This document shows, in pieces, positions 27,001 through 39,069 of a stretch of 39,069 nucleotides of DNA. The DNA is taken from assembly GCA_964501035.1 (NCBI GenBank), contig CAZCRK010000010.1:1-39069 (forward strand), given 5' to 3'. Position numbers: made by a program. Within the stretch, counting starts at the first letter, position 1, and every line of letters begins with the position of its first letter.

Positions 27001-30000
27001 TTATTGTAAACCTATCGTCGGAAAATAAAACCCCAATACAGAGTATTAACCAAACAATTCTCATATTTAAAACCTTTCAGAATACATAATTTTCACTTCA
27101 CGATTTGTATAATCAGCACCTACTTTTTTATTAATATCATTAAAGTTTACTTCGAGCATTAAATTAGATGCAACAGACCAACGAATACCTGCATTTAATA
27201 GACCAACCTTCCCACCGAATGTAATATCGTCTAAATTATTTATTTCATAATCATTTTCATTAAGAGCTGCATTATATTCAATTAAGAACGAAAAACTCCG
27301 ATTAAGTTCTTTATCTATTCCAAAAAAGAAATTTACATCTTCATCACCGTCATCATTTTCGGTTATCGATTTATTCAACCCAATATGAACACCCAAATTC
27401 CCCATCACATTCCAATTTTTGGAAGATATTACATACATTCCCCAAGATTTTACTTCATATTTATTTACTTCTGTTGAGTCAGTTTCACTTTCATAAATAT
27501 AATTATGGTATGCACCTTTACCTTGAGTATCTAACCCAAACACAATAGCTGGTCTTGATTGGGTTTCTTCAAATGCTCTATATTTTACTTGAACTTCTGG
27601 CGATGCTTTGTTTATACTTGGTTCATTATTGCCTATAAAATTTTGAACACCATATGACATTCCAAAACTAAAATTGTCGGTTAGTCCAACAAATAATCGT
27701 GGTAAAATTCCACCATTTTTCATTAAGATAGTTTCAAATGTAAACGATCCTTTTGGTAAAGTTCCAGCAGTTGGAATCGTCACTAAATCTAAAGGTGGAA
27801 ATGGTTGCTCACTTTGTGCAAAAATGGCTGAACCAGTTAACAATATTAGTAATATTTTTTTCATCATTTAGAATTTCCTATTTTACTTGATACAATTTCT
27901 TGGGTAACAATATTCCCAAATTTATCCTTTTCAATCACTTCGTACTGAGCAGTTTTTGGATCAAAAATACTTTCAAACTCTCTAATTTTAGTATCTGAGT
28001 TACCTAAATACCATGATTCATTAATCAAATGGTTTTTCTCATCATAATCCATTAAAATGTTTCCAATAGAATACCCATTCATAGATTCAAATTGGTATGA
28101 TTCAATGAGACCATCTTCTGTGTAGAATATTTTTAATAAGTGATCATAATAATGAGGAACAAAACCGGGTGAAAATATATAATCAAAAAACCGATTTGAA
28201 ATTGAATTTTCTCCAAACCATGCTTTAAATTTTGGTATGCCGTTTACTGAATCTTGGAAGTAATCTAACAACCCATTTTGCTTGTACACATAAACACGCT
28301 TTAATACTGTAGAATCTAATTCACTTCCCCAATAAATACTGGAAACTCGACCATTATTATTGCGTAACACTCGCATACTATGATCAGGATCAATTTGATT
28401 TTTAAATAACTGCAAACCTTTCACTAAAGCGTTCATATCTTTATAATATTCGAAATCGACCTGAGGAGTCATATCAACCACTATATCTTCATTCTGTGTA
28501 ATAAACTCTTCAATTTCTTCTGAGAGTTCAGGACGTAAGTCACGTAAATAATATAAATAGTCTTTGTAGCTTTTTAATTTTAACCTATAATATTCATAGG
28601 TTTCAATATATTGCCGTTTGATTATATTTGCTTGAGTTTGAAATACATTTTTTTCTTTAGCTTTCTCTGACCAAGTTAAAGGTTTGTATGTATATTTTAA
28701 TTCCGGTTTATCACCAGCAATAATATAAGGTTCTTCTCCGAGTTCTTCTTCAAATTTTCTAATGTATTGAATAAACTTAACATCAATTTCATTAAACCGA
28801 GAATCTAGATATTTATGCTCTTCATAGATTGCATGTGCTACGGATTGGTAGAATTGATGTTTATCATTTTCAACATCAATTATATCTGCAATTTTTTCAA
28901 AATCTAAGAGATCATTAATAGATTCTTTTACTTCATCAACAAGATATGGGCTATCAACATTAACCGAAAACAATACAGTCAAAAAAACAAACCAAACTAA
29001 GTTGAATATCTTATTCATCGAAGAATTTCATTTACAATTAATACTATATCAATTACATTTATAATCATATCACTATTTCCATCAGCGATGCAATACTGGG
29101 TATCGGTAAAATTTACTTCATCTAAAATATAATTGACAACCATTACAATATCTATTACGTTTAAAACTAAATCTTGATTTACATCACCATTTGGTGTGCA
29201 TTCATTTTCAACAAAATTCGTTGAACCTGGCGTACCATAATCGCCATTTGACATTAACTGTATCGATGTAGACCAGTTTTCACCATTATCATTTTCAGTG
29301 GCAATATCTATCAATTGTATGCTTGCGCCCGTTGGGTCGGGAAACGTTGAACCATTATCGTATGCAACACAATCAATCATTTCTCCAGAAGGAATTCCAA
29401 TGCATACTTCATCCCAAGAATTACTCAAGAAAAAATTTGAATACTTATAATCTACAGAAATATTTCCGTTTAAAGCAGTGTTGTCTTCAATACCCAATAC
29501 AATAAACTCATTTGGGGCTAAATTTAAACTTCCACCATTCTGAATTTGATGGTAATCTTCACCTGTATCGTATATCGTAAGTCCATTAAGATCAATAATA
29601 TCACTCCCAATATTAGTTAACTCAAACCACTCTCCATATGAGTCCGATACAGCTTGGGGGTTTTGCATAATTTCATTAATGATAAGCCCTGTTGGAGCTT
29701 CAATTTGTTGAAGTACAATCGACCAATTAACTGGACGATGGTCTGAAATATTGGTTTGATATGATGAACTACCAATATAATTATCTAATCGAATAGTTTG
29801 AATATCACTATCGTCAACATATTCCATAAGTGAAGATGAAATCAAAATATGGTCTATAAATGAATTAGTCCCCCACGGATGACTATTATAGTAATTATTA
29901 TTTGCAATTGGGGTAGTTGTAAAATACATTTCATTCGAGTCAACCAATGGCCAAAGTGAGTTATTTGATTGAGAGTTTGTTATCTCATCATTAAAATCAC

Positions 30001-33000
30001 CTGCAACTATCACATGATTTGGACTTTGATTTTCAATGTAATTTGCTAAAATTTCTGAAGCAAGTAACCTACGTTCAAATCCATCATTACAACATTTAAA
30101 ATGCACATTTATTATTTGTGTGCTTAATGAAGAGGTTCCACATCCCCACTGTATATTCACCATTAGGGGATTACGATACGCAAACTCCCAACCGTCATAA
30201 GGGAATAATGTTTGGGTATTTGTAATAGTTACACAATCTGAACGCACAGCGATAGCTAAATCATATCCAGAATATCCACCATCAGCTTCGTAGTCAGTAT
30301 GAACAAATTCATAGGCAGGCAAATTGTTTGCTAAATTGTTCAAACTACTTAACTGGCTAACTTCTTGAATTGCAATAACATCAGGTAGCATATCAGTTAT
30401 AATTTCTTGCACATAACTAATTGTATTGGATGTTGCAGGAAATTCTCGAATGTTCCATGTCATAACTTCTAGCCCATTCCAGTTATTTACTACAGGAATA
30501 TTCCAATTATTTTGCATGGGATTTATAGACAGTGTATCAGTTGGTGGGCATTCCTGTGCTATAACTACACTTGCTAAAAGGAAATAAATAATATGGTTAC
30601 ATAATTTTCGCATACTATAATTTACGACAACAAGGATAAGATGTTACTATGACAATTACTTAATGGGAAATGATAACATTACAGGCAAATGGTCTGAAAT
30701 ATATGTCTCATAGATTTCAAAGCTACCCATGTAATCTGCCATTGGAAGTGTTTGTACAAAATAATCTGAATTTGGCTCAACCAGTGAATTTGACACTAAA
30801 ATATGATCCAAAAAACTCACATAGGGTTCTTTGGGGTAAGATGCTTGACTTATATCAAACGTTATATCCCATGTTGGGAAAAAATATGCATTATCATCTA
30901 AAAATGGTTGAAAACAATGTTCAGTTGGGTCATCTTTCAAATCATCATTCCAATCACCCAATACAATAAAATGAGTCCCATCCTTTTCTGCTTCATCTGA
31001 TACATACTCATGTAGTGATTTCACTGCTTTTTGACGTCTAGATAATCCAGAATTACAACATTTCATGTGTAGATTAATGACAGAAAATGGAAGTTGATTG
31101 TCCCCATCATTATAAATAAAATCTGTTCGCATAGGTGGTCTTCCAGCAAAATTATAATCACTTTCAGAAAATGGTTCTACAATCCGTTCGAGTGTAAACA
31201 AATTTTTCTTGAATATTATCGCTTGGTCCATAAATGAGGATTGTTTGGACACTTCAAAGCTATATTCAGGTAGTAATTTTATTAATTTACTAAACCACCC
31301 GGTACGTTTAATTTCCTGAAATGCAATAATATCTGCTGAAAAATCATGAACAGCCTCAGCTAGTGCAAGAATTGTAGAATCATTGGCATGTGGGAAAAAT
31401 TCACAATTCCAAGTTAATATCTCAATATTTTGCTCAGAATCAAGATTGGGGAAATCCCAATTATCAAATTGAAATTCACTGAATTCATTCTTTAAAACTT
31501 CAGTAGAATTAATTTCATTCTTCGAATGATAATAGGTTTCTAATGCAGTTTCCTGTTTTTCCCGTATCCATTTCAAATCCTGAAAGTTGGGCTGGAAATT
31601 ATCTGCTAATAATGATTGGCTTACGTCACCATCAATTTCAGTTTCAACACCTAATAACATATGAGATTCAGCATCAATTGTTAATTTCAGATGGGTAAAT
31701 GAATTCCCATAATTTTGCATTGTATAAACATGGGAAAATGGATCATACCAAAGTGACCTATACCCTTTGGAGTTTCCACCAGTAACAATTAAATCAGCCC
31801 CCTGGGCAAAATACCCCATTTCGATTGCATTTAATGATGTATTATTGACATCTTTAGTATCTAGATCACTCAAAAACTCTTCATAAACCTTTTCTCTTTC
31901 CCATGGGATACCAGCGCTGGTAAGCACAACTATCACTTCAGCTCCTTTTTTGCGCAAAATGGGTATCCATTTTTCAAGAGTTGGTTTTTCGTAATCTAAT
32001 GTAATATTTCGTAGATTTTCATTAAGAACTAATTCTGGAATTTCAGAATGGACAACTCCTAATATTCCTACTTTAACACCTTTTATATCCTTAATTATAT
32101 AGGGTTTAAAATTTTGAGATGTTAATGGGCAATTATTACACTCTACATTTGCACCAACAAAAGGGAAATTGGCAGTGTTTATGAGTGTATTTAAATTATT
32201 AACTCCCGATATAAAATCGTATCGAGCTGGAACCACTGCATCATATTGAATTCTATTGAACCATTCAATCATACTTTGTCCATTATCAGCCATTCCAAAG
32301 GGAGTACCTTGAAAAAAATTACCACCATCAAGTAATAAAACACCTTCATTATGATTGATTGCTTCTTCCCGAATATCATCAACATATTTTGAAAAACCTG
32401 CTCCACCCACCATATCAGGTGGATACTCTGGATTCATCCAGTAAGCCTTATCCTCAGTAATGGCACCATGAATATCATTTGTAGTAATAAGGTGAATATT
32501 AATTGTTTGCTCGGAGTTGGACAAACAAAATGAACTCATTAATATTGAAAGAAATAGATTTGAAAATTTGAATTGCATTTTTACCATTTACCGTACATTG
32601 GATTAGGAAAAATAAATTTATTTAATCCCCAAACATAGTTATCATTTTCTGGAAAATCACCCATTGCATCCCCAAAATATGCTAACACTTGATAACTACC
32701 ATATTCACTCATTCGATTTGTACCATCTAACACTTCTTGACGTCTAATATATTTTTTATCTGATTTGTTTTGACGTAGTAGATAGATGTCTGATTTATGA
32801 CCAACCTTCAAATTTAACATGTTTACACGTGTTGCATCCGTTCTATCAGCCATTCTATTGCTTATAAACACAAATCTGCAATCAGGAATGGTCCTCATGC
32901 TATCAATAAATGCTTTTGCACCTGGGACTAAACTTGCTTCAGCTCTATTCACCCAATCTGCCCAACTTTCCATATTGAAGGATTCCCCTTTTTCAACAAG

Positions 33001-39000: not shown

Positions 39001-39069
39001 ATACTCTTGAAAAAGCATAATAGTCTTCATGAGATGTTTCAAAATACAATTGGTCTTCAGCTGGAGTAT

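What a model noticed while it worked through the whole genome (the two positions that open the first line are those of the whole stretch)
27067..39067. Nine-gene exported operon for capture and breakdown of extracellular nucleic acids, built around a family-less HhH prote [...]
Nine co-directional genes (g00522-g00530; the eight complete ones start with signal-peptide-like N-termini) combine two endonuclease/exonuclease/phosphatase enzymes (g00524 with a lamin-tail domain; g00525 fused to a CpdB-like 2',3'-cyclic phosphodiesterase/3'-nucleotidase part), a class-B acid phosphatase (g00526), a TraF_2-type outer-membrane barrel (g00529) and five family-less proteins. The largest, g00528 (882 aa), starts with a ComEA/EEPD1-type helix-hairpin-helix DNA-binding module. 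The set reads as a surface machine that binds extracellular DNA or RNA, cuts it and strips phosphate: a nucleic-acid utilisation locus.
Evidence so far: pfam.tsv and call 199: Exo_endo_phos on g00524 (51-292) and g00525 (391-633), LTD on g00524, Acid_phosphat_B on g00526 (E 1e-30), TraF_2 on g00529; g00525 7-259 is 26% identical to E. coli CpdB (E 1e-13). g00528: HHH_3 at 19-80 (E 8e-7, call 112); a 10-row profile of its homologues hits only EEPD1 (9yi2, E 2e-7) and ComEA (8dfk 8e-4, 8dss 2e-3) among PDB sequences, all through residues 12-85. Homologues of g00528 in 15 of 20 relatives; g00528 and g00529 are adjacent in 11 of 11 related loci and g00527 in 10 of 11, the eleventh locus being cut.
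(Added by a program. Inside this text positions count along the whole contig: contig position 1 is position 1 of the stretch shown here. "Call 12" and the like, gene names such as g00115 and contig names such as C1 are that model's own, and its searches are not shown. The text may have been shortened before it was handed on; [...] marks where a part breaks off. The agent that wrote the report below was given it as the finding of a first reader that could run no searches.)

Follow-up and report, generated by a model that had tools for sequence, protein, structure and literature searches.

The report
Marine bacterium's nucleic-acid scavenging gene cluster
A conserved gene cluster of an uncultured marine Marinimicrobia bacterium combines exported nuclease-type and phosphatase enzymes with nucleic-acid-binding surface proteins and a previously undescribed large outer-membrane barrel carrying a ComEA-like module, most likely to harvest DNA or RNA from seawater.

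Summary
Window 27067-39067 (minus strand) carries nine tightly packed genes, and all domain hits were reproduced. The cluster continues upstream on contig C64 with LTD-rich surface proteins, and runs on downstream into a TPR gene and queG.

New results:
- g528 folds with confidence (pLDDT 85.7) as two helix-hairpin-helix (HhH) modules followed by a 24-strand outer-membrane barrel of usher size. Strand and loop lengths place the HhH modules in the periplasm, not on the surface.
- HhH1 has the ComEA fold but is acidic and lacks the GIG hairpins.
- g530 is LTD + OB fold + a PorU-like T9SS C-terminal domain.
- g529 and g527 are PorV/FadL-type barrels.
- The "CpdB-like" half of g525 has its metal-binding motifs replaced in all 13 orthologues aligned, so it is probably inactive.
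- Gene order is conserved in Marinimicrobia. A core of g530-like, g529 and g528 recurs in distant lineages, without the enzymes in one of them.

Best reading (about 0.5): a nucleic-acid capture, import and degradation locus. DNA binding, nuclease specificity and channel function are all inferred, not shown. I rate it a new variant of a known kind, interest about 0.6.

The parts
38039..39067 (-). g530, C-terminal 342 aa; the gene is cut at the contig end and its N-terminus with an LTD lies on contig C64 (L004 3-608). It has a small Cys-rich segment, an OB fold (residues 80-222 of the fragment) and a T9SS-type C-terminal domain (232-341). Proposed role: surface-anchored nucleic-acid receptor.
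   Evidence: FlgD_ig E 8.7e-4 and Por_Secre_tail E 1e-3, both below their cut-offs. AF2 model pLDDT 84.1. VIA matches: MCM N-domain 4me3_A Z 10.5 (rmsd 2.1, 94 aligned), AsnRS 6pqh_A Z 10.3, PorU CTD 6za2_B Z 10.0 (rmsd 3.1, 99 aligned, 20% identity). LTD on the C64 piece, E 1.5e-5.
37158..38039 (-). g529, 293 aa, a PorV/PorQ-type (FadL-like) outer-membrane barrel. Proposed role: anchor or shuttle for the C-terminal domain of g530.
   Evidence: NF033709 PorV_fam E 4.4e-18 (65.9 bits, cut-off 90), T9SS_PorQ E 1.8e-6. TraF_2 E 6.8e-7 and Toluene_X E 1.2e-5. Directly upstream of g528 in 21 of 21 loci with upstream sequence.
34510..37158 (-). g528, 882 aa: signal peptide, HhH module 1 (about 19-85), helical linker, HhH module 2 (about 125-190), then a 24-strand beta-barrel (196-881). 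Conserved long loops lie at 289-328, 481-546 and 604-649. A low-confidence acidic repeat insert occupies 358-425. Proposed role: outer-membrane conduit with a periplasmic ComEA-like module.
   Evidence: HHH_3 E 7.8e-7. AF2 pLDDT 85.7, pTM 0.84, with the strand list. ComEA 8dss_B Z 11.6, rmsd 1.3, 31% identity. FimD 3ohn_B Z 13.3 with 371 aligned; PapC Z 13.0; MtrB 428 aligned. Foldseek found only generic barrels at TM 0.2-0.3. No Pfam or NCBIfam family on the barrel.
33237..34520 (-). g527, 427 aa, a second FadL/PorV-type outer-membrane barrel and a distant paralogue of g529.
   Evidence: NCBIfam BamG E 3.7e-8 and PorV_fam E 3.5e-6, both below cut-off. Profile against PDB: 9hjm_F 0.012, TbuX 0.016, PorV 0.072. 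hhalign to the g529 family gives 94% probability. A homologue follows g528 in Eisenbacteria locus L031, hhalign 98.7%.
32581..33240 (-). g526, 219 aa, a class-C (HAD IIIB) acid phosphatase with a signal peptide and no lipobox cysteine. Proposed role: periplasmic nucleotidase.
   Evidence: Acid_phosphat_B E 1.2e-29 (103.9 bits, cut-off 27). TIGR01533 e(P4) E 7.7e-32, but 110.6 bits against a cut-off of 216. Present in only 4 related loci: L019, L020, L021, L022.
30656..32587 (-). g525, 643 aa: an N-terminal metallophosphoesterase-like domain (about 25-260) with degenerate metal-binding motifs, plus a C-terminal EEP domain (391-633).
   Evidence: Exo_endo_phos E 1.6e-13. PRK09420 E 1.7e-21, below cut-off. 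Alignment to solved 5'-nucleotidases shows GD changed to GN and GNHEF changed to PARYDF. The same substitutions occur in all 13 Marinimicrobia orthologues, whereas the canonical motifs are kept in L030/L031.
29015..30613 (-). g524, 532 aa: EEP domain (51-292), lamin-tail domain (306-418) and type I dockerin (476-531). Proposed role: extracellular or surface nuclease docked on a cohesin scaffold.
   Evidence: Pfam hits. The residues N54, E84, D206, N208, D254, H255, D291 and H292 are invariant across 12 family members. Dockerin matches to cellulosomal dockerins, E 1e-4. Cohesin domains occur elsewhere in the genome.
27864..29018 (-). g523, 384 aa, exported protein with no assignable family; restricted to part of the Marinimicrobia loci.
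   Evidence: No Pfam or NCBIfam hit of note. Atlas scores 0.82 or lower. Homologues in L007, L009, L012 and L013 only.
27067..27867 (-). g522, 266 aa, a probable small outer-membrane beta-barrel with a signal peptide and a conserved C-terminal ...SE[SR]F.
   Evidence: No Pfam, NCBIfam or PDB-sequence hit. Atlas leads, all Fidelibacterota or Cloacimonadota: DUF5723, D15-fragment and YjbH clusters at 0.98-0.99. Conserved at the operon end in 7 loci.
26336..27064 (-). TPR protein with a signal peptide (RMD1-3-like), 2 nt downstream of g522. Possibly co-transcribed; role unknown.
   Evidence: RMD1-3 E 3e-29 and TPR families. Follows g522 in L018, L021 and L022.
25399..26331 (-). queG (tRNA epoxyqueuosine reductase), 4 nt downstream. 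A housekeeping neighbour, probably not part of the system.
   Evidence: TIGR00276 E 4.1e-98. Syntenic in L007, L009, L013 and L021.

Best explanation
This is a conserved Marinimicrobia locus for capturing, importing and degrading extracellular nucleic acid. It is laid out like a polysaccharide-utilisation locus but built from different parts.

Proposed sequence of events (every step is inferred unless marked as shown):
1. All products are exported. N-terminal signal peptides are visible in the sequences.
2. g530 (LTD + OB fold + T9SS C-terminal domain) and the upstream LTD-rich proteins on contig C64 are put on the cell surface by the type IX system. That the genome encodes SprA is shown. They bind polymeric DNA or RNA.
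3. The PorV/PorQ-type barrel g529 holds g530 by its C-terminal domain, as PorV holds PorU (recalled).
4. The dockerin-bearing EEP enzyme g524 cuts the polymer outside the cell, on a cohesin scaffold. g525 may also cut it.
5. Fragments cross the outer membrane through g528, a 24-strand barrel of usher size. Its tandem HhH modules sit on the periplasmic face. There they either retain incoming nucleic acid, as ComEA does in competence, or dock the EEP enzymes.
6. In the periplasm, EEP activity and the class-C acid phosphatase g526 release nucleosides and phosphate. These are taken up by transporters encoded elsewhere; a NupC-type gene is present in the genome.
7. g527 and g522 are accessory barrels of unknown role.
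For: Folds and domains shown here:
- g528 is two HhH modules plus a 24-strand barrel. It resembles ComEA at Z 11.6 (rmsd 1.3) and FimD/PapC barrels at Z 13.3/13.0.
- g530 has an OB fold of the nucleic-acid-binding type (Z about 10 to MCM, aaRS anticodon-binding and RPA domains) and a PorU-like C-terminal domain at Z 10.0.
- There are two EEP domains, with catalytic-type residues invariant in 12 family members.
- There is a class-C acid phosphatase.
- The upstream proteins match the N-terminal LTD/OB parts of the extracellular nucleases ExeM and NucH.
- u2 orthologues carry DUF5689 at E 2.9e-10 and 2.5e-12. This is the domain of a surface protein essential for natural transformation in Riemerella (PMC8459023, passages read).

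Conservation:
- g529-g528 adjacency holds in 21 of 21 loci, g527 in 18 of 18, and a g525-type gene in 15 of 16 Marinimicrobia loci with room.
- In Eisenbacteria the core is followed, about 3 kb on, by a canonical 5'-nucleotidase. That is a second association with nucleotide hydrolysis.

Genome context:
- SprA, cohesins and a NupC-type nucleoside transporter are present.
- Among the 17 high-quality genomes, g528 and ComEC are uncoupled: both in 10, g528 only in 3, ComEC only in 4. This fits a catabolic role better than a strictly competence-linked one.

Precedent (recalled, plus search listing and passages): eDNA use through LTD/OB/EEP nucleases plus periplasmic nucleotidases is established in Vibrio and Shewanella. 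'DNA-degradation loci' are described for Izemoplasmatales.
Against: - No activity or binding is shown for any product.
- HhH1 lacks both GIG hairpins and is acidic in most family members (median net charge -3, pI 4.8). HhH2 is only about neutral, median +1.
- EEP enzymes also include phospholipases, sphingomyelinases and phosphatases. The nearest solved relatives give no substrate, and the ExeM/NucH nuclease model scores only 17 bits on g525.
- The metallophosphoesterase half of g525 looks inactive.
- LTD occurs 17 times in this genome, so it is a general module of this organism's secreted proteins.
- OB folds can bind sugars as well as nucleic acids.
- FadL/PorV-type barrels normally handle hydrophobic molecules or protein C-terminal domains, not nucleotides.
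- The enzymes are missing beside the core in L020 and in the L026/L029 lineage.
- g526 is present in only 4 related loci.
- Whether the g528 barrel is open or plugged by its conserved loops could not be examined, because no model coordinates were available.
Confidence: 0.5

Rival explanations
1. This is a DNA-uptake (competence) apparatus of the FCB type. The surface OB/DUF5689 proteins and the g528 barrel would bring intact DNA into the periplasm for ComEC-dependent transformation. The nucleases would process one strand or clear the surplus.
For: - The HhH module of g528 is ComEA-like.
- u2 orthologues carry DUF5689. In Riemerella, a DUF5689 surface protein and an adjacent outer-membrane beta-barrel are essential for transformation (PMC8459023).
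- ComEC is present in 14 of 17 high-quality relatives, including the same-genus genome.
- The window's own genome has a canonical 130-aa ComEA and two secretins.
Against: - ComEC was not found in the window's own genome, which is 95.7% complete.
- g528 occurs without detectable ComEC in G013 and G023, and ComEC occurs without g528 in G020, G022, G026 and G030.
- The genome already has a separate canonical ComEA.
- The locus is dominated by degradative enzymes.
- HhH1 is acidic and lacks GIG hairpins.
Confidence: 0.15
2. This is a scavenging locus for another phosphoester substrate, for example phospholipids or vesicle membranes, or organic phosphorus in general. EEP enzymes would act as phospholipase-C or sphingomyelinase-type hydrolases. 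FadL-type barrels would take up the hydrophobic products, and the acid phosphatase would free phosphate.
For: - The EEP superfamily is substrate-diverse, and no nuclease-specific model reaches its cut-off.
- Two to three FadL/PorV-type barrels are present.
- LTD is generic in this genome.
- HhH1 is not DNA-like in charge.
Against: - Nucleic-acid-type folds co-occur: OB in g530, HhH in g528, ExeM/NucH N-terminal similarity and DUF5689.
- The core is associated with a 5'-nucleotidase in Eisenbacteria.
- No lipase or GDPD-type domain was found in the locus.
Confidence: 0.12
3. There are two unrelated modules that merely sit together. The g530-g529-g528-g527 core would be an outer-membrane or T9SS-related cell-surface module, such as an anchoring platform or an envelope tether with a periplasmic HhH domain used structurally as in PsbU. 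It would have no nucleic-acid role, and the enzymes would be independent secreted hydrolases.
For: - The core occurs without enzymes in L020 and in L026/L029.
- g527 matches BamG-type and PorV-type models.
- The top barrel matches include the envelope tethers SlpA and OmpM1.
- HHH_3-fold proteins such as PsbU appear among the weak PDB hits.
Against: - The enzymes follow the core in 15 of 16 Marinimicrobia loci, with overlapping reading frames in the window.
- The protein upstream of the core repeatedly carries LTD or OB-type domains in three distant lineages.
Confidence: 0.13

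Closest known systems
Extracellular-DNA utilisation in Vibrio cholerae and Shewanella oneidensis: Xds/ExeM (LTD + OB + EEP nucleases), Dns/ExeS, and the periplasmic enzymes UshA, CpdB and PhoX
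   Same: The same set of domain types is used: LTD, OB fold, EEP, then periplasmic nucleotide dephosphorylation. The upstream proteins match the N-terminal parts of ExeM and NucH. Passages on ExeM domain structure were read. For PMC4714964 I saw only the search listing and the start of the abstract.
   Different: - Here the LTD/OB binding parts and the EEP catalytic parts are on separate proteins.
- Export signals are T9SS C-terminal domains and dockerins rather than GlyGly-CTERM or T2SS.
- The CpdB/UshA-like domain is degenerate.
- The genes form one conserved operon-like cluster with four or five outer-membrane barrels, which the Vibrio and Shewanella systems lack.
- No nuclease-specific model reaches its cut-off.
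'DNA-degradation loci' of Candidatus Izemoplasmatales (Wasmund et al. 2021, PMC8289736; passages read)
   Same: Both co-localise nucleases, an LTD- and nucleic-acid-binding-domain protein, and uptake functions in one locus of an uncultured marine bacterium.
   Different: Izemoplasmatales have no outer membrane, and those loci hold nucleoside or nucleobase transporters. This locus is from a diderm. Its distinguishing parts are the outer-membrane barrels (g528, g529, g527, g522) and the T9SS-type anchoring.
ComEA, the periplasmic DNA receptor of natural competence (solved: 8dss, 8dfk)
   Same: g528 residues 19-83 superpose on ComEA at Z 11.6, rmsd 1.3, 31% identity. The profile E-value is 6.5e-11. 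The predicted location is periplasmic, as for ComEA in diderms (recalled).
   Different: - g528 is an 882-aa protein in which the HhH modules are fused to a 24-strand barrel.
- Both hairpins depart from GIG and the module is acidic.
- A separate canonical ComEA exists in the genome.
Riemerella anatipestifer transformation pair RA0C_RS04920 (DUF5689/DUF5017 surface protein) and RA0C_RS04915 (CarboxypepD_reg outer-membrane beta-barrel) (PMC8459023; passages read)
   Same: Both come from FCB-group bacteria and pair a surface protein with a large outer-membrane beta-barrel implicated in handling DNA at the outer membrane. DUF5689 is present in orthologues of the upstream protein u2.
   Different: - The barrel here has no CarboxypepD_reg or Plug domain and no sequence relation to RA0C_RS04915 was seen.
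- DUF5689 was not detected in the window genome's own u2, even at E up to 1.
- The Riemerella system serves transformation and is not linked to nucleases.
T9SS attachment pairs PorV-PorU and PorQ-PorZ, and the SprA-PorV translocon (recalled; solved 6h3i, 6za2, 5m11)
   Same: A PorV/PorQ-family barrel (g529) is encoded next to a protein whose C-terminal domain resembles that of PorU at Z 10.0, and next to a very large barrel.
   Different: - g529 scores below the PorV_fam cut-off, 65.9 against 90 bits.
- g528 has 24 strands, whereas SprA has 36 (recalled), and it showed no specific match to SprA in the lists returned.
- The genome has its own SprA elsewhere.
Bacteroidota polysaccharide-utilisation loci (SusC/SusD with surface binding proteins and enzymes)
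   Same: The logic is the same: surface binding proteins, surface enzymes, a dedicated outer-membrane conduit and periplasmic finishing enzymes, all in one co-directional cluster.
   Different: There is no TonB-dependent SusC, no SusD and no glycoside hydrolase in the locus. The conduit candidate has no plug or TonB box that I could recognise.

Membership tests
ComEA / HHH_3 DNA receptor (g528 N-terminus) | HHH_3 domain recognised by sequence and fold | tested here: met
   PF12836 29.6 bits against a cut-off of 27. Profile against ComEA 8dss, E 6.5e-11. VIA Z 11.6, rmsd 1.3 over 65 residues.
ComEA / HHH_3 DNA receptor (g528 N-terminus) | Two Gly-hydrophobic-Gly hairpins and basic surface that contact DNA backbone (motif recalled) | tested here: not met
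   The alignment to 8dss shows LP-LS where ComEA has PGIG, and GIS where it has GIG. HhH1 median net charge is -3 over 61 family members.
ComEA / HHH_3 DNA receptor (g528 N-terminus) | Small stand-alone periplasmic or membrane-anchored protein working with ComEC | tested here: not met
   The protein is 882 aa and fused to a barrel. ComEC was not found in G000 and is uncoupled from g528 among relatives.
Endonuclease/exonuclease/phosphatase superfamily (g524, g525 C-terminal half) | Pfam Exo_endo_phos above gathering score; conserved catalytic Asn/Glu/Asp/His set (set recalled) | tested here: met
   54.6 and 51.4 bits against a cut-off of 24.5. N54, E84, D206, N208, D254, H255, D291 and H292 are invariant in 12 sequences.
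ExeM/NucH extracellular nucleases | Single chain with LTD + OB region + EEP nuclease reaching the NCBIfam cut-off | tested here: not met
   NF033681 scores 17.4 bits on g525 against a cut-off of 300. u2 and u3 match only the N-terminal LTD/OB parts of the models. The parts lie on separate proteins.
CpdB/UshA 5'-nucleotidase family (g525 N-terminal half) | Metallophosphoesterase motifs DxH, GD, GNHE, H, GHxH intact, plus 5_nucleotid_C domain | tested here: not met
   Only DxH is kept. The others read GGN, PARYDF (PGxYDF in most orthologues), TSxG and GGNSKGY (GGVS[RK] in four) in all 13 orthologues. L030 and L031 keep the canonical motifs. No Metallophos or 5_nucleotid_C hit was listed. All NCBIfam scores are far below their cut-offs.
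Class C acid phosphatase / e(P4) (g526) | HAD IIIB Acid_phosphat_B domain | tested here: met
   103.9 bits against a cut-off of 27. The DLDET and GD...DF aspartate motifs are visible in the sequence (motif recalled).
Class C acid phosphatase / e(P4) (g526) | Outer-membrane lipoprotein of the e(P4) equivalog | tested here: not met
   TIGR01533 scores 110.6 bits against a cut-off of 216. There is no cysteine in the signal-peptide region.
PorV/PorQ family (g529; g527 distantly) | NCBIfam PorV_fam at or above cut-off | tested here: inconclusive
   g529 scores 65.9 bits against a cut-off of 90, over the whole length 25-293. g527 scores 26.8 bits. hhalign of g527 against g529 gives 94%. Binding of a C-terminal domain was not tested.
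T9SS type A cargo (g530; u3 on C64) | C-terminal sorting domain recognised; T9SS translocon in genome | tested here: inconclusive
   g530 scores 19 bits on TIGR04183 (cut-off 23) and 19.7 on FlgD_ig (cut-off 27), but its fold matches the PorU C-terminal domain at Z 10.0. u3 passes both thresholds: Por_Secre_tail 30.4 against 27 and TIGR04183 36.2 against 23. SprA is present.
Chaperone-usher ushers (FimD/PapC) for the g528 barrel | 24-strand barrel with plug, N-terminal and C-terminal usher domains | tested here: inconclusive
   Only the barrel aligns, at Z 13.3/13.0 with 10% identity. No usher Pfam domain was found. I read this as a similarity in size and fold, not as membership.
SusC/SusD-type utilisation locus | TonB-dependent SusC-like transporter with adjacent SusD-like lipoprotein | tested here: not met
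   No Plug, TonB_dep_Rec or SusD hit on any gene of the locus. The neighbouring TonB-dependent receptor at 21638-24004 is on the opposite strand.

The most novel reading that the evidence does not exclude
g528 would found a new class of outer-membrane nucleic-acid translocon: a 24-strand barrel with a built-in periplasmic ComEA-like module. It would work with a T9SS-anchored OB-fold receptor (g530) and PorV-type partner barrels (g529, g527). Together with the enzymes, this would be a 'nucleic-acid utilisation locus', the nucleic-acid counterpart of SusCD polysaccharide loci. It would also be a secretin-independent route for DNA or oligonucleotides across the outer membrane in FCB-group and related bacteria.
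Probability: 0.3. Interest if true: 0.85.

Novelty: new variant of a known kind. Interest (0 to 1): 0.62.

Why it matters
Marinimicrobia (SAR406, Fidelibacterota) are abundant in the ocean and almost entirely uncultured. Dissolved DNA and RNA are a major pool of organic phosphorus and nitrogen in seawater.

A conserved, dedicated locus for harvesting nucleic acids would give this phylum a concrete ecological role. It would also give concrete marker genes for metatranscriptomic studies.

Mechanistically, how polymers other than glycans and siderophores cross the outer membrane is poorly known. The only established outer-membrane route for DNA is the type IV pilus secretin (recalled). A barrel fused to a ComEA-like module, conserved next to an OB-fold surface protein in several deep lineages, is a testable candidate for a second route.

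The g528 barrel has no Pfam or NCBIfam family. There are 99 cluster representatives at E of 1e-30 or better in the 50%-identity library.

Tried and rejected
- Complex prediction of the g528 barrel (190-882) with g529 (17-293) gave 'no answer', scores 0.00 and 0.00, and the controls were not run. This is neither for nor against binding.
- Foldseek against PDB for g528 gave only generic barrels at TM 0.2-0.3, so no specific family could be named for the barrel.
- SprA did not appear in the rows shown for g528. This does not exclude similarity.
- Profile-to-PDB sequence searches found nothing for g522 at E up to 1, and only E of 0.012 or weaker FadL/PorV-type hits for g527.
- The OB fold of g530 was not detectable by sequence. 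Pfam on 6 homologues and a PDB profile found only FlgD_ig and LTD. It was seen only in the model.
- The protein atlas gave no usable lead for g523, scores 0.82 or lower. Pfam at E up to 0.5 gave nothing credible for g523, for the 426-aa neighbour, or for u5.
- A single-sequence PDB search of the g524 EEP domain found nothing at E up to 0.01.
- Promoter and terminator scans were at chance level: 91 promoter-like sites against 77 ± 10 expected, and 7 terminator-like sites against 6.3 ± 2.5. Operon boundaries therefore rest on gene spacing only.
- Expression: no RNA holder was listed. One run whose library record says metatranscriptomic, but which the tool flags as probably DNA (X11), holds 7 short contigs (151-268 nt, 99% or more alike) over g524, g525, g527, g528, g529 and g530. 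I do not count this as evidence of transcription.
- 'ComEC absent, therefore feeding' was considered and weakened. ComEC is not found in G000 but is present in the same-genus genome G001 and in 14 of 17 high-quality genomes.
- The 'EEPD1 tandem HhH equals g528 tandem HhH' idea was rejected. Both EEPD1 HhH repeats align to the same g528 module, HhH1.
- Literature searches found no description of this locus or of an HhH-barrel fusion. The library covers only open-access papers and preprints.
Pore diameter, plug loops and electrostatics of the g528 barrel could not be examined.

Full report
**What is in the sequence**

The window is a whole 39,069-bp contig (C10) of a 1.87-Mb genome that is 95.7% complete and split over 167 contigs. 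G+C is 29-35%. The closest homologues carry the source names Candidatus Marinimicrobia or Neomarinimicrobiota.

On the minus strand, nine ORFs fill 27067-39067. Neighbouring ORFs overlap by 1-11 nt, except for a 42-nt gap between g525 and g524. The same packing continues downstream into a signal-peptide-bearing TPR gene (26336-27064, 2-nt gap) and queG (25399-26331, 4-nt gap).

The 5'-most gene, g530, is cut by the contig end. The last 55 nt of the window are identical to the first 55 nt of contig C64. C64 continues on the same strand with these genes:
- the N-terminus of g530 (signal peptide plus LTD);
- u2, an 832-aa protein (LTD, PKD domains, a stretch matching the N-terminal part of the ExeM/NucH model, dockerin);
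- u3, a 1057-aa protein (three LTDs matching the N-terminus of ExeM, dockerin, T9SS sorting domain above cut-off);
- a divergent polysaccharide deacetylase;
- a 288-aa unknown;
- another PorV-like barrel.

The join is supported independently by gene order in relatives. There, u3-, u2- and g530-N-like genes directly precede g530-C, g529 and g528. I did not build a joined sequence.

All Pfam hits named in the finding were reproduced. NCBIfam adds that g529 is PorV/PorQ-like and g527 is weakly BamG/PorV-like.

**g528**

I built an alignment of 61 diverse homologues. They came from the 50%-identity representative library, where there are 682 hits at E of 1e-3 or better and 99 at 1e-30 or better. 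Some hits are due only to the acidic repeat insert at residues 358-425.

AlphaFold2 then gave a confident model, with mean pLDDT 85.7 and pTM 0.84. The model shows:
- helices up to about residue 185, forming two HhH modules joined by a helical linker;
- 24 strands of 9-23 residues between 196 and 881.

Connections after even-numbered strands are 2-5 residues long. Connections after odd-numbered strands are mostly long (23, 9, 40, about 100, 66, 8, 46, 5, 10, 20, 2 and 24 residues).

By the usual rule for outer-membrane proteins (recalled), turns are short on the periplasmic side, loops are long on the outside, and both termini are periplasmic when the strand number is even. The HhH modules would therefore face the periplasm.

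Structure searches gave the following:
- Foldseek found only generic barrels.
- VIA-align found the 24-strand usher pores FimD (Z 13.3, 371 aligned, rmsd 4.6) and PapC (Z 13.0), and MtrB (428 aligned), as the barrels covering most of the domain.
- ComEA matched residues 19-83 at Z 11.6, rmsd 1.3 and 31% identity.
- By sequence profile, only the first HhH module matches solved proteins: EEPD1 at 3.4e-19 and ComEA at 6.5e-11.

Two points count against simple DNA binding. The alignment to ComEA shows both Gly-Ile-Gly hairpins changed, to LP-LS and GIS. HhH1 is also acidic in most of the 61 family members (median net charge -3, pI 4.8), while HhH2 is near neutral to basic (median +1, pI 8.8).

**The other unassigned proteins**

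*g530.* The g530 fragment, with a 36-row alignment, folded at pLDDT 84.1.
- Residues 80-222 form an OB fold. Its best matches are nucleic-acid-binding OB domains: MCM N-terminal domain Z 10.5, asparaginyl-, lysyl- and aspartyl-tRNA synthetase anticodon-binding domains Z 9.3-10.3, RPA Z 9.7, and PolC.
- Residues 232-341 match the C-terminal domain of PorU (Z 10.0, rmsd 3.1, 99 aligned, 20% identity). PorZ appears in the Foldseek list.
- With the LTD on the C64 piece, g530 has the LTD + OB layout of the N-terminal half of ExeM-type nucleases (ExeM domain passages). In place of a catalytic domain it carries a T9SS sorting or anchoring domain.
- The genome encodes SprA.

*g527.* It is a distant paralogue of g529 (hhalign 94%) and weakly resembles FadL/TodX/PorV-type barrels.

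*g522.* It has a signal peptide and a conserved C-terminal phenylalanine, with atlas leads to outer-membrane barrel clusters. I call it a probable small barrel, but it was not folded.

*g523.* It remains unexplained.

**The enzymes**

Both EEP domains pass the Pfam threshold. In an alignment of 12 g524-type sequences, the residues N54, E84, D206, N208, D254, H255, D291 and H292 are invariant. This is consistent with an active EEP site (catalytic set recalled).

Substrate is not determined. The nearest solved sequences are an uncharacterised Bacteroides EEP protein (3g6s, 3e-6), two EEP-domain proteins (9sf9, 9sf8), nocturnin and TDP2.

g524 ends in a type I dockerin, and the genome has four cohesin matches elsewhere. 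An extracellular, scaffold-bound location is therefore plausible.

g526 is a clear class-C acid phosphatase, but it is not an e(P4)-type lipoprotein.

The N-terminal half of g525 does resemble 5'-nucleotidase/CpdB catalytic domains, at E about 4e-13 to solved 5'-nucleotidases. The aligned motifs, however, read NDIH (kept), GGN for GD, PARYDF for GNHEF, TSAG for the His motif and GGNSKGY for GHTH. The same replacements occur in all 13 Marinimicrobia orthologues examined. The canonical motifs are intact in the 5'-nucleotidases of the Eisenbacteria loci. I therefore read this half as a conserved but probably inactive domain, perhaps retained for binding.

**Conservation**

A scan of GTDB species genomes gave 28 related loci. 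I compared them with all locus proteins by tblastn.

- g529 is directly upstream of g528 in 21 of 21 loci that have upstream sequence: 15 Marinimicrobia-type and 6 distant.
- g527 is directly downstream in 18 of 18 Marinimicrobia-type loci with room.
- A g525-type gene follows in 15 of 16 loci with room.
- g524-type, g523 and g522 follow in subsets.
- g526 is present in only four loci.
- L020 has the core plus g526, then housekeeping genes.

In the distant loci L026, L027 and L029, the core is a large protein with Ig-like domains, weak OB-fold hits and a FlgD_ig-type C-terminus, then the g529 homologue, then the g528 homologue. The core is followed by the succinyl-CoA ligase alpha subunit, ksgA and recO.

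In two Eisenbacteria genomes, the core is an LTD- or Big_5-rich giant protein followed by g529 and g528. In L031 a g527 homologue comes next (hhalign 98.7%). About 3 kb further on lies a canonical 5'-nucleotidase, and L030 also has a metallo-beta-lactamase-fold protein there.

Orthologues of u2 in L020 and L021 carry DUF5689 above the gathering score. The window genome's own u2 does not show it at E up to 1.

Among 31 genomes of the order, g528 is found in 24 and ComEC in 14. Among the 17 high-quality genomes, both are present in 10, g528 alone in 3, and ComEC alone in 4.

**Interpretation**

The invariant unit is a four-part envelope module:
- a surface protein with OB/LTD domains and a T9SS-type tail;
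- a PorV-type barrel;
- the HhH-barrel;
- usually a second PorV-type barrel.

In Marinimicrobia this module is welded to EEP enzymes and sometimes to a nucleotidase-type phosphatase. In Eisenbacteria it is loosely associated with a 5'-nucleotidase.

Several observations make capture and breakdown of extracellular nucleic acid the best-supported function:
- two different nucleic-acid-type folds (OB, HhH);
- ExeM/NucH-like binding parts;
- DUF5689;
- EEP enzymes and nucleotide phosphatases;
- a NupC-type nucleoside transporter elsewhere in the genome.

The mechanism I propose is set out under Best explanation. Every step beyond the folds and gene order is inference.

- g528 is the conduit candidate, with its HhH modules inside the periplasm.
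- g530 and the C64 proteins, not g528, are the likely surface binders.
- One of the supposed enzymes is a pseudo-enzyme domain.
- The locus is about 12-14 genes long rather than nine.

Weaknesses:
- the atypical, acidic HhH1;
- the undetermined EEP substrate;
- the abundance of LTD in this genome (17 matches, 6 of them here);
- the dispensability of the enzymes next to the core in some lineages.

**Comparison with what is known**

Use of extracellular DNA through LTD/OB/EEP nucleases and periplasmic nucleotidases is known in Vibrio and Shewanella (ExeM passages; PMC4714964 seen as a listing only). 'DNA-degradation loci' are described in Izemoplasmatales (passages).

In Riemerella, a DUF5689 surface protein and an adjacent outer-membrane barrel are essential for natural transformation (passages). 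That is the closest experimental precedent for a barrel-based DNA route in the FCB group.

None of these systems includes an HhH-barrel fusion or PorV-type partners. My five literature searches found no description of such a protein or locus in Marinimicrobia. The library holds only open-access papers and preprints. I did not read supplements, which may list such genes.

**Verdict**

I rate the finding a new variant of a known kind (nucleic-acid scavenging systems) that contains a new protein architecture, g528. Its function, if shown, would be of considerable interest. Confidence in the scavenging reading is about 0.5.

Noticed in passing
window 39015-39069 and L004 (G000:C64) 1-9277: The window's last 55 nt are identical to the start of contig C64. 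C64 continues the cluster on the same strand: the g530 N-terminus with LTD, an 832-aa LTD/PKD/dockerin protein, a 1057-aa 3xLTD/dockerin/T9SS-CTD protein, a divergent polysaccharide deacetylase, a 288-aa unknown and a PorV-like barrel.
   Followed up: yes
window 35884-36087 (g528 residues 358-425): An acidic D/N/E-rich repeat insert (low pLDDT) sits in the longest loop of the g528 barrel. It is absent from most homologues. On its own it hits giant repeat proteins of up to 4813 aa in the representative library. It may be a calcium-binding type repeat.
   Followed up: partly
window 31800-32510 (g525 N-terminal domain): A metallophosphoesterase-like domain has metal-ligand motifs II-V replaced in all 13 Marinimicrobia orthologues aligned, yet the domain itself is well conserved. 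It looks like a pseudo-enzyme domain fused to an EEP enzyme.
   Followed up: yes
window 21638-25284 (+ strand): A TonB-dependent receptor with CarboxypepD_reg and Plug domains (788 aa) is followed, with a 1-nt overlap, by a 426-aa protein with no family. The pair is convergent with the locus. A CarboxypepD_reg outer-membrane protein paired with a surface protein is what Riemerella needs for transformation, but no DUF5689 was found here.
   Followed up: partly
whole genome G000: There are 17 LTD matches on 11 contigs and 4 cohesin matches (contigs C9, C29, C52), beside the dockerins on g524, u2 and u3. This suggests a cohesin-dockerin display system for secreted proteins in this Marinimicrobia genome.
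   Followed up: no
G000:C21 (L033 1309-1701): A canonical small ComEA (130 aa, membrane anchor plus HHH_3 at 74.5 bits) lies next to dnaJ and possible pilus-assembly-like ORFs. ComEC was not found in this genome, although it is present in the same-genus genome G001.
   Followed up: partly
window 1-3054 (- strand): A PET-hydrolase-like (dienelactone hydrolase type) esterase is cut at the contig start. It is followed by an SRAP (abasic-site sensor) gene overlapping a Y-family polymerase with DUF4113.
   Followed up: no
window 11173-12588 (- strand): An LpxC-FabZ(FabA-like) fusion protein sits inside an lpxD / lpxC-fabZ / lpxA group downstream of skp and bamA (14160-16592).
   Followed up: no
L021 13820-14477: The g526 homologue in this related locus is matched in two overlapping pieces (residues 5-85 and 75-219). 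This suggests a frameshift or an assembly error.
   Followed up: no
G001:C59 1306-3756: The g528 homologue of the genome labelled same genus is only 39-45% identical to the window's protein. Homologues in other genera of the family reach 65%. Possible explanations are fast evolution, paralogy or exchange of the locus.
   Followed up: no
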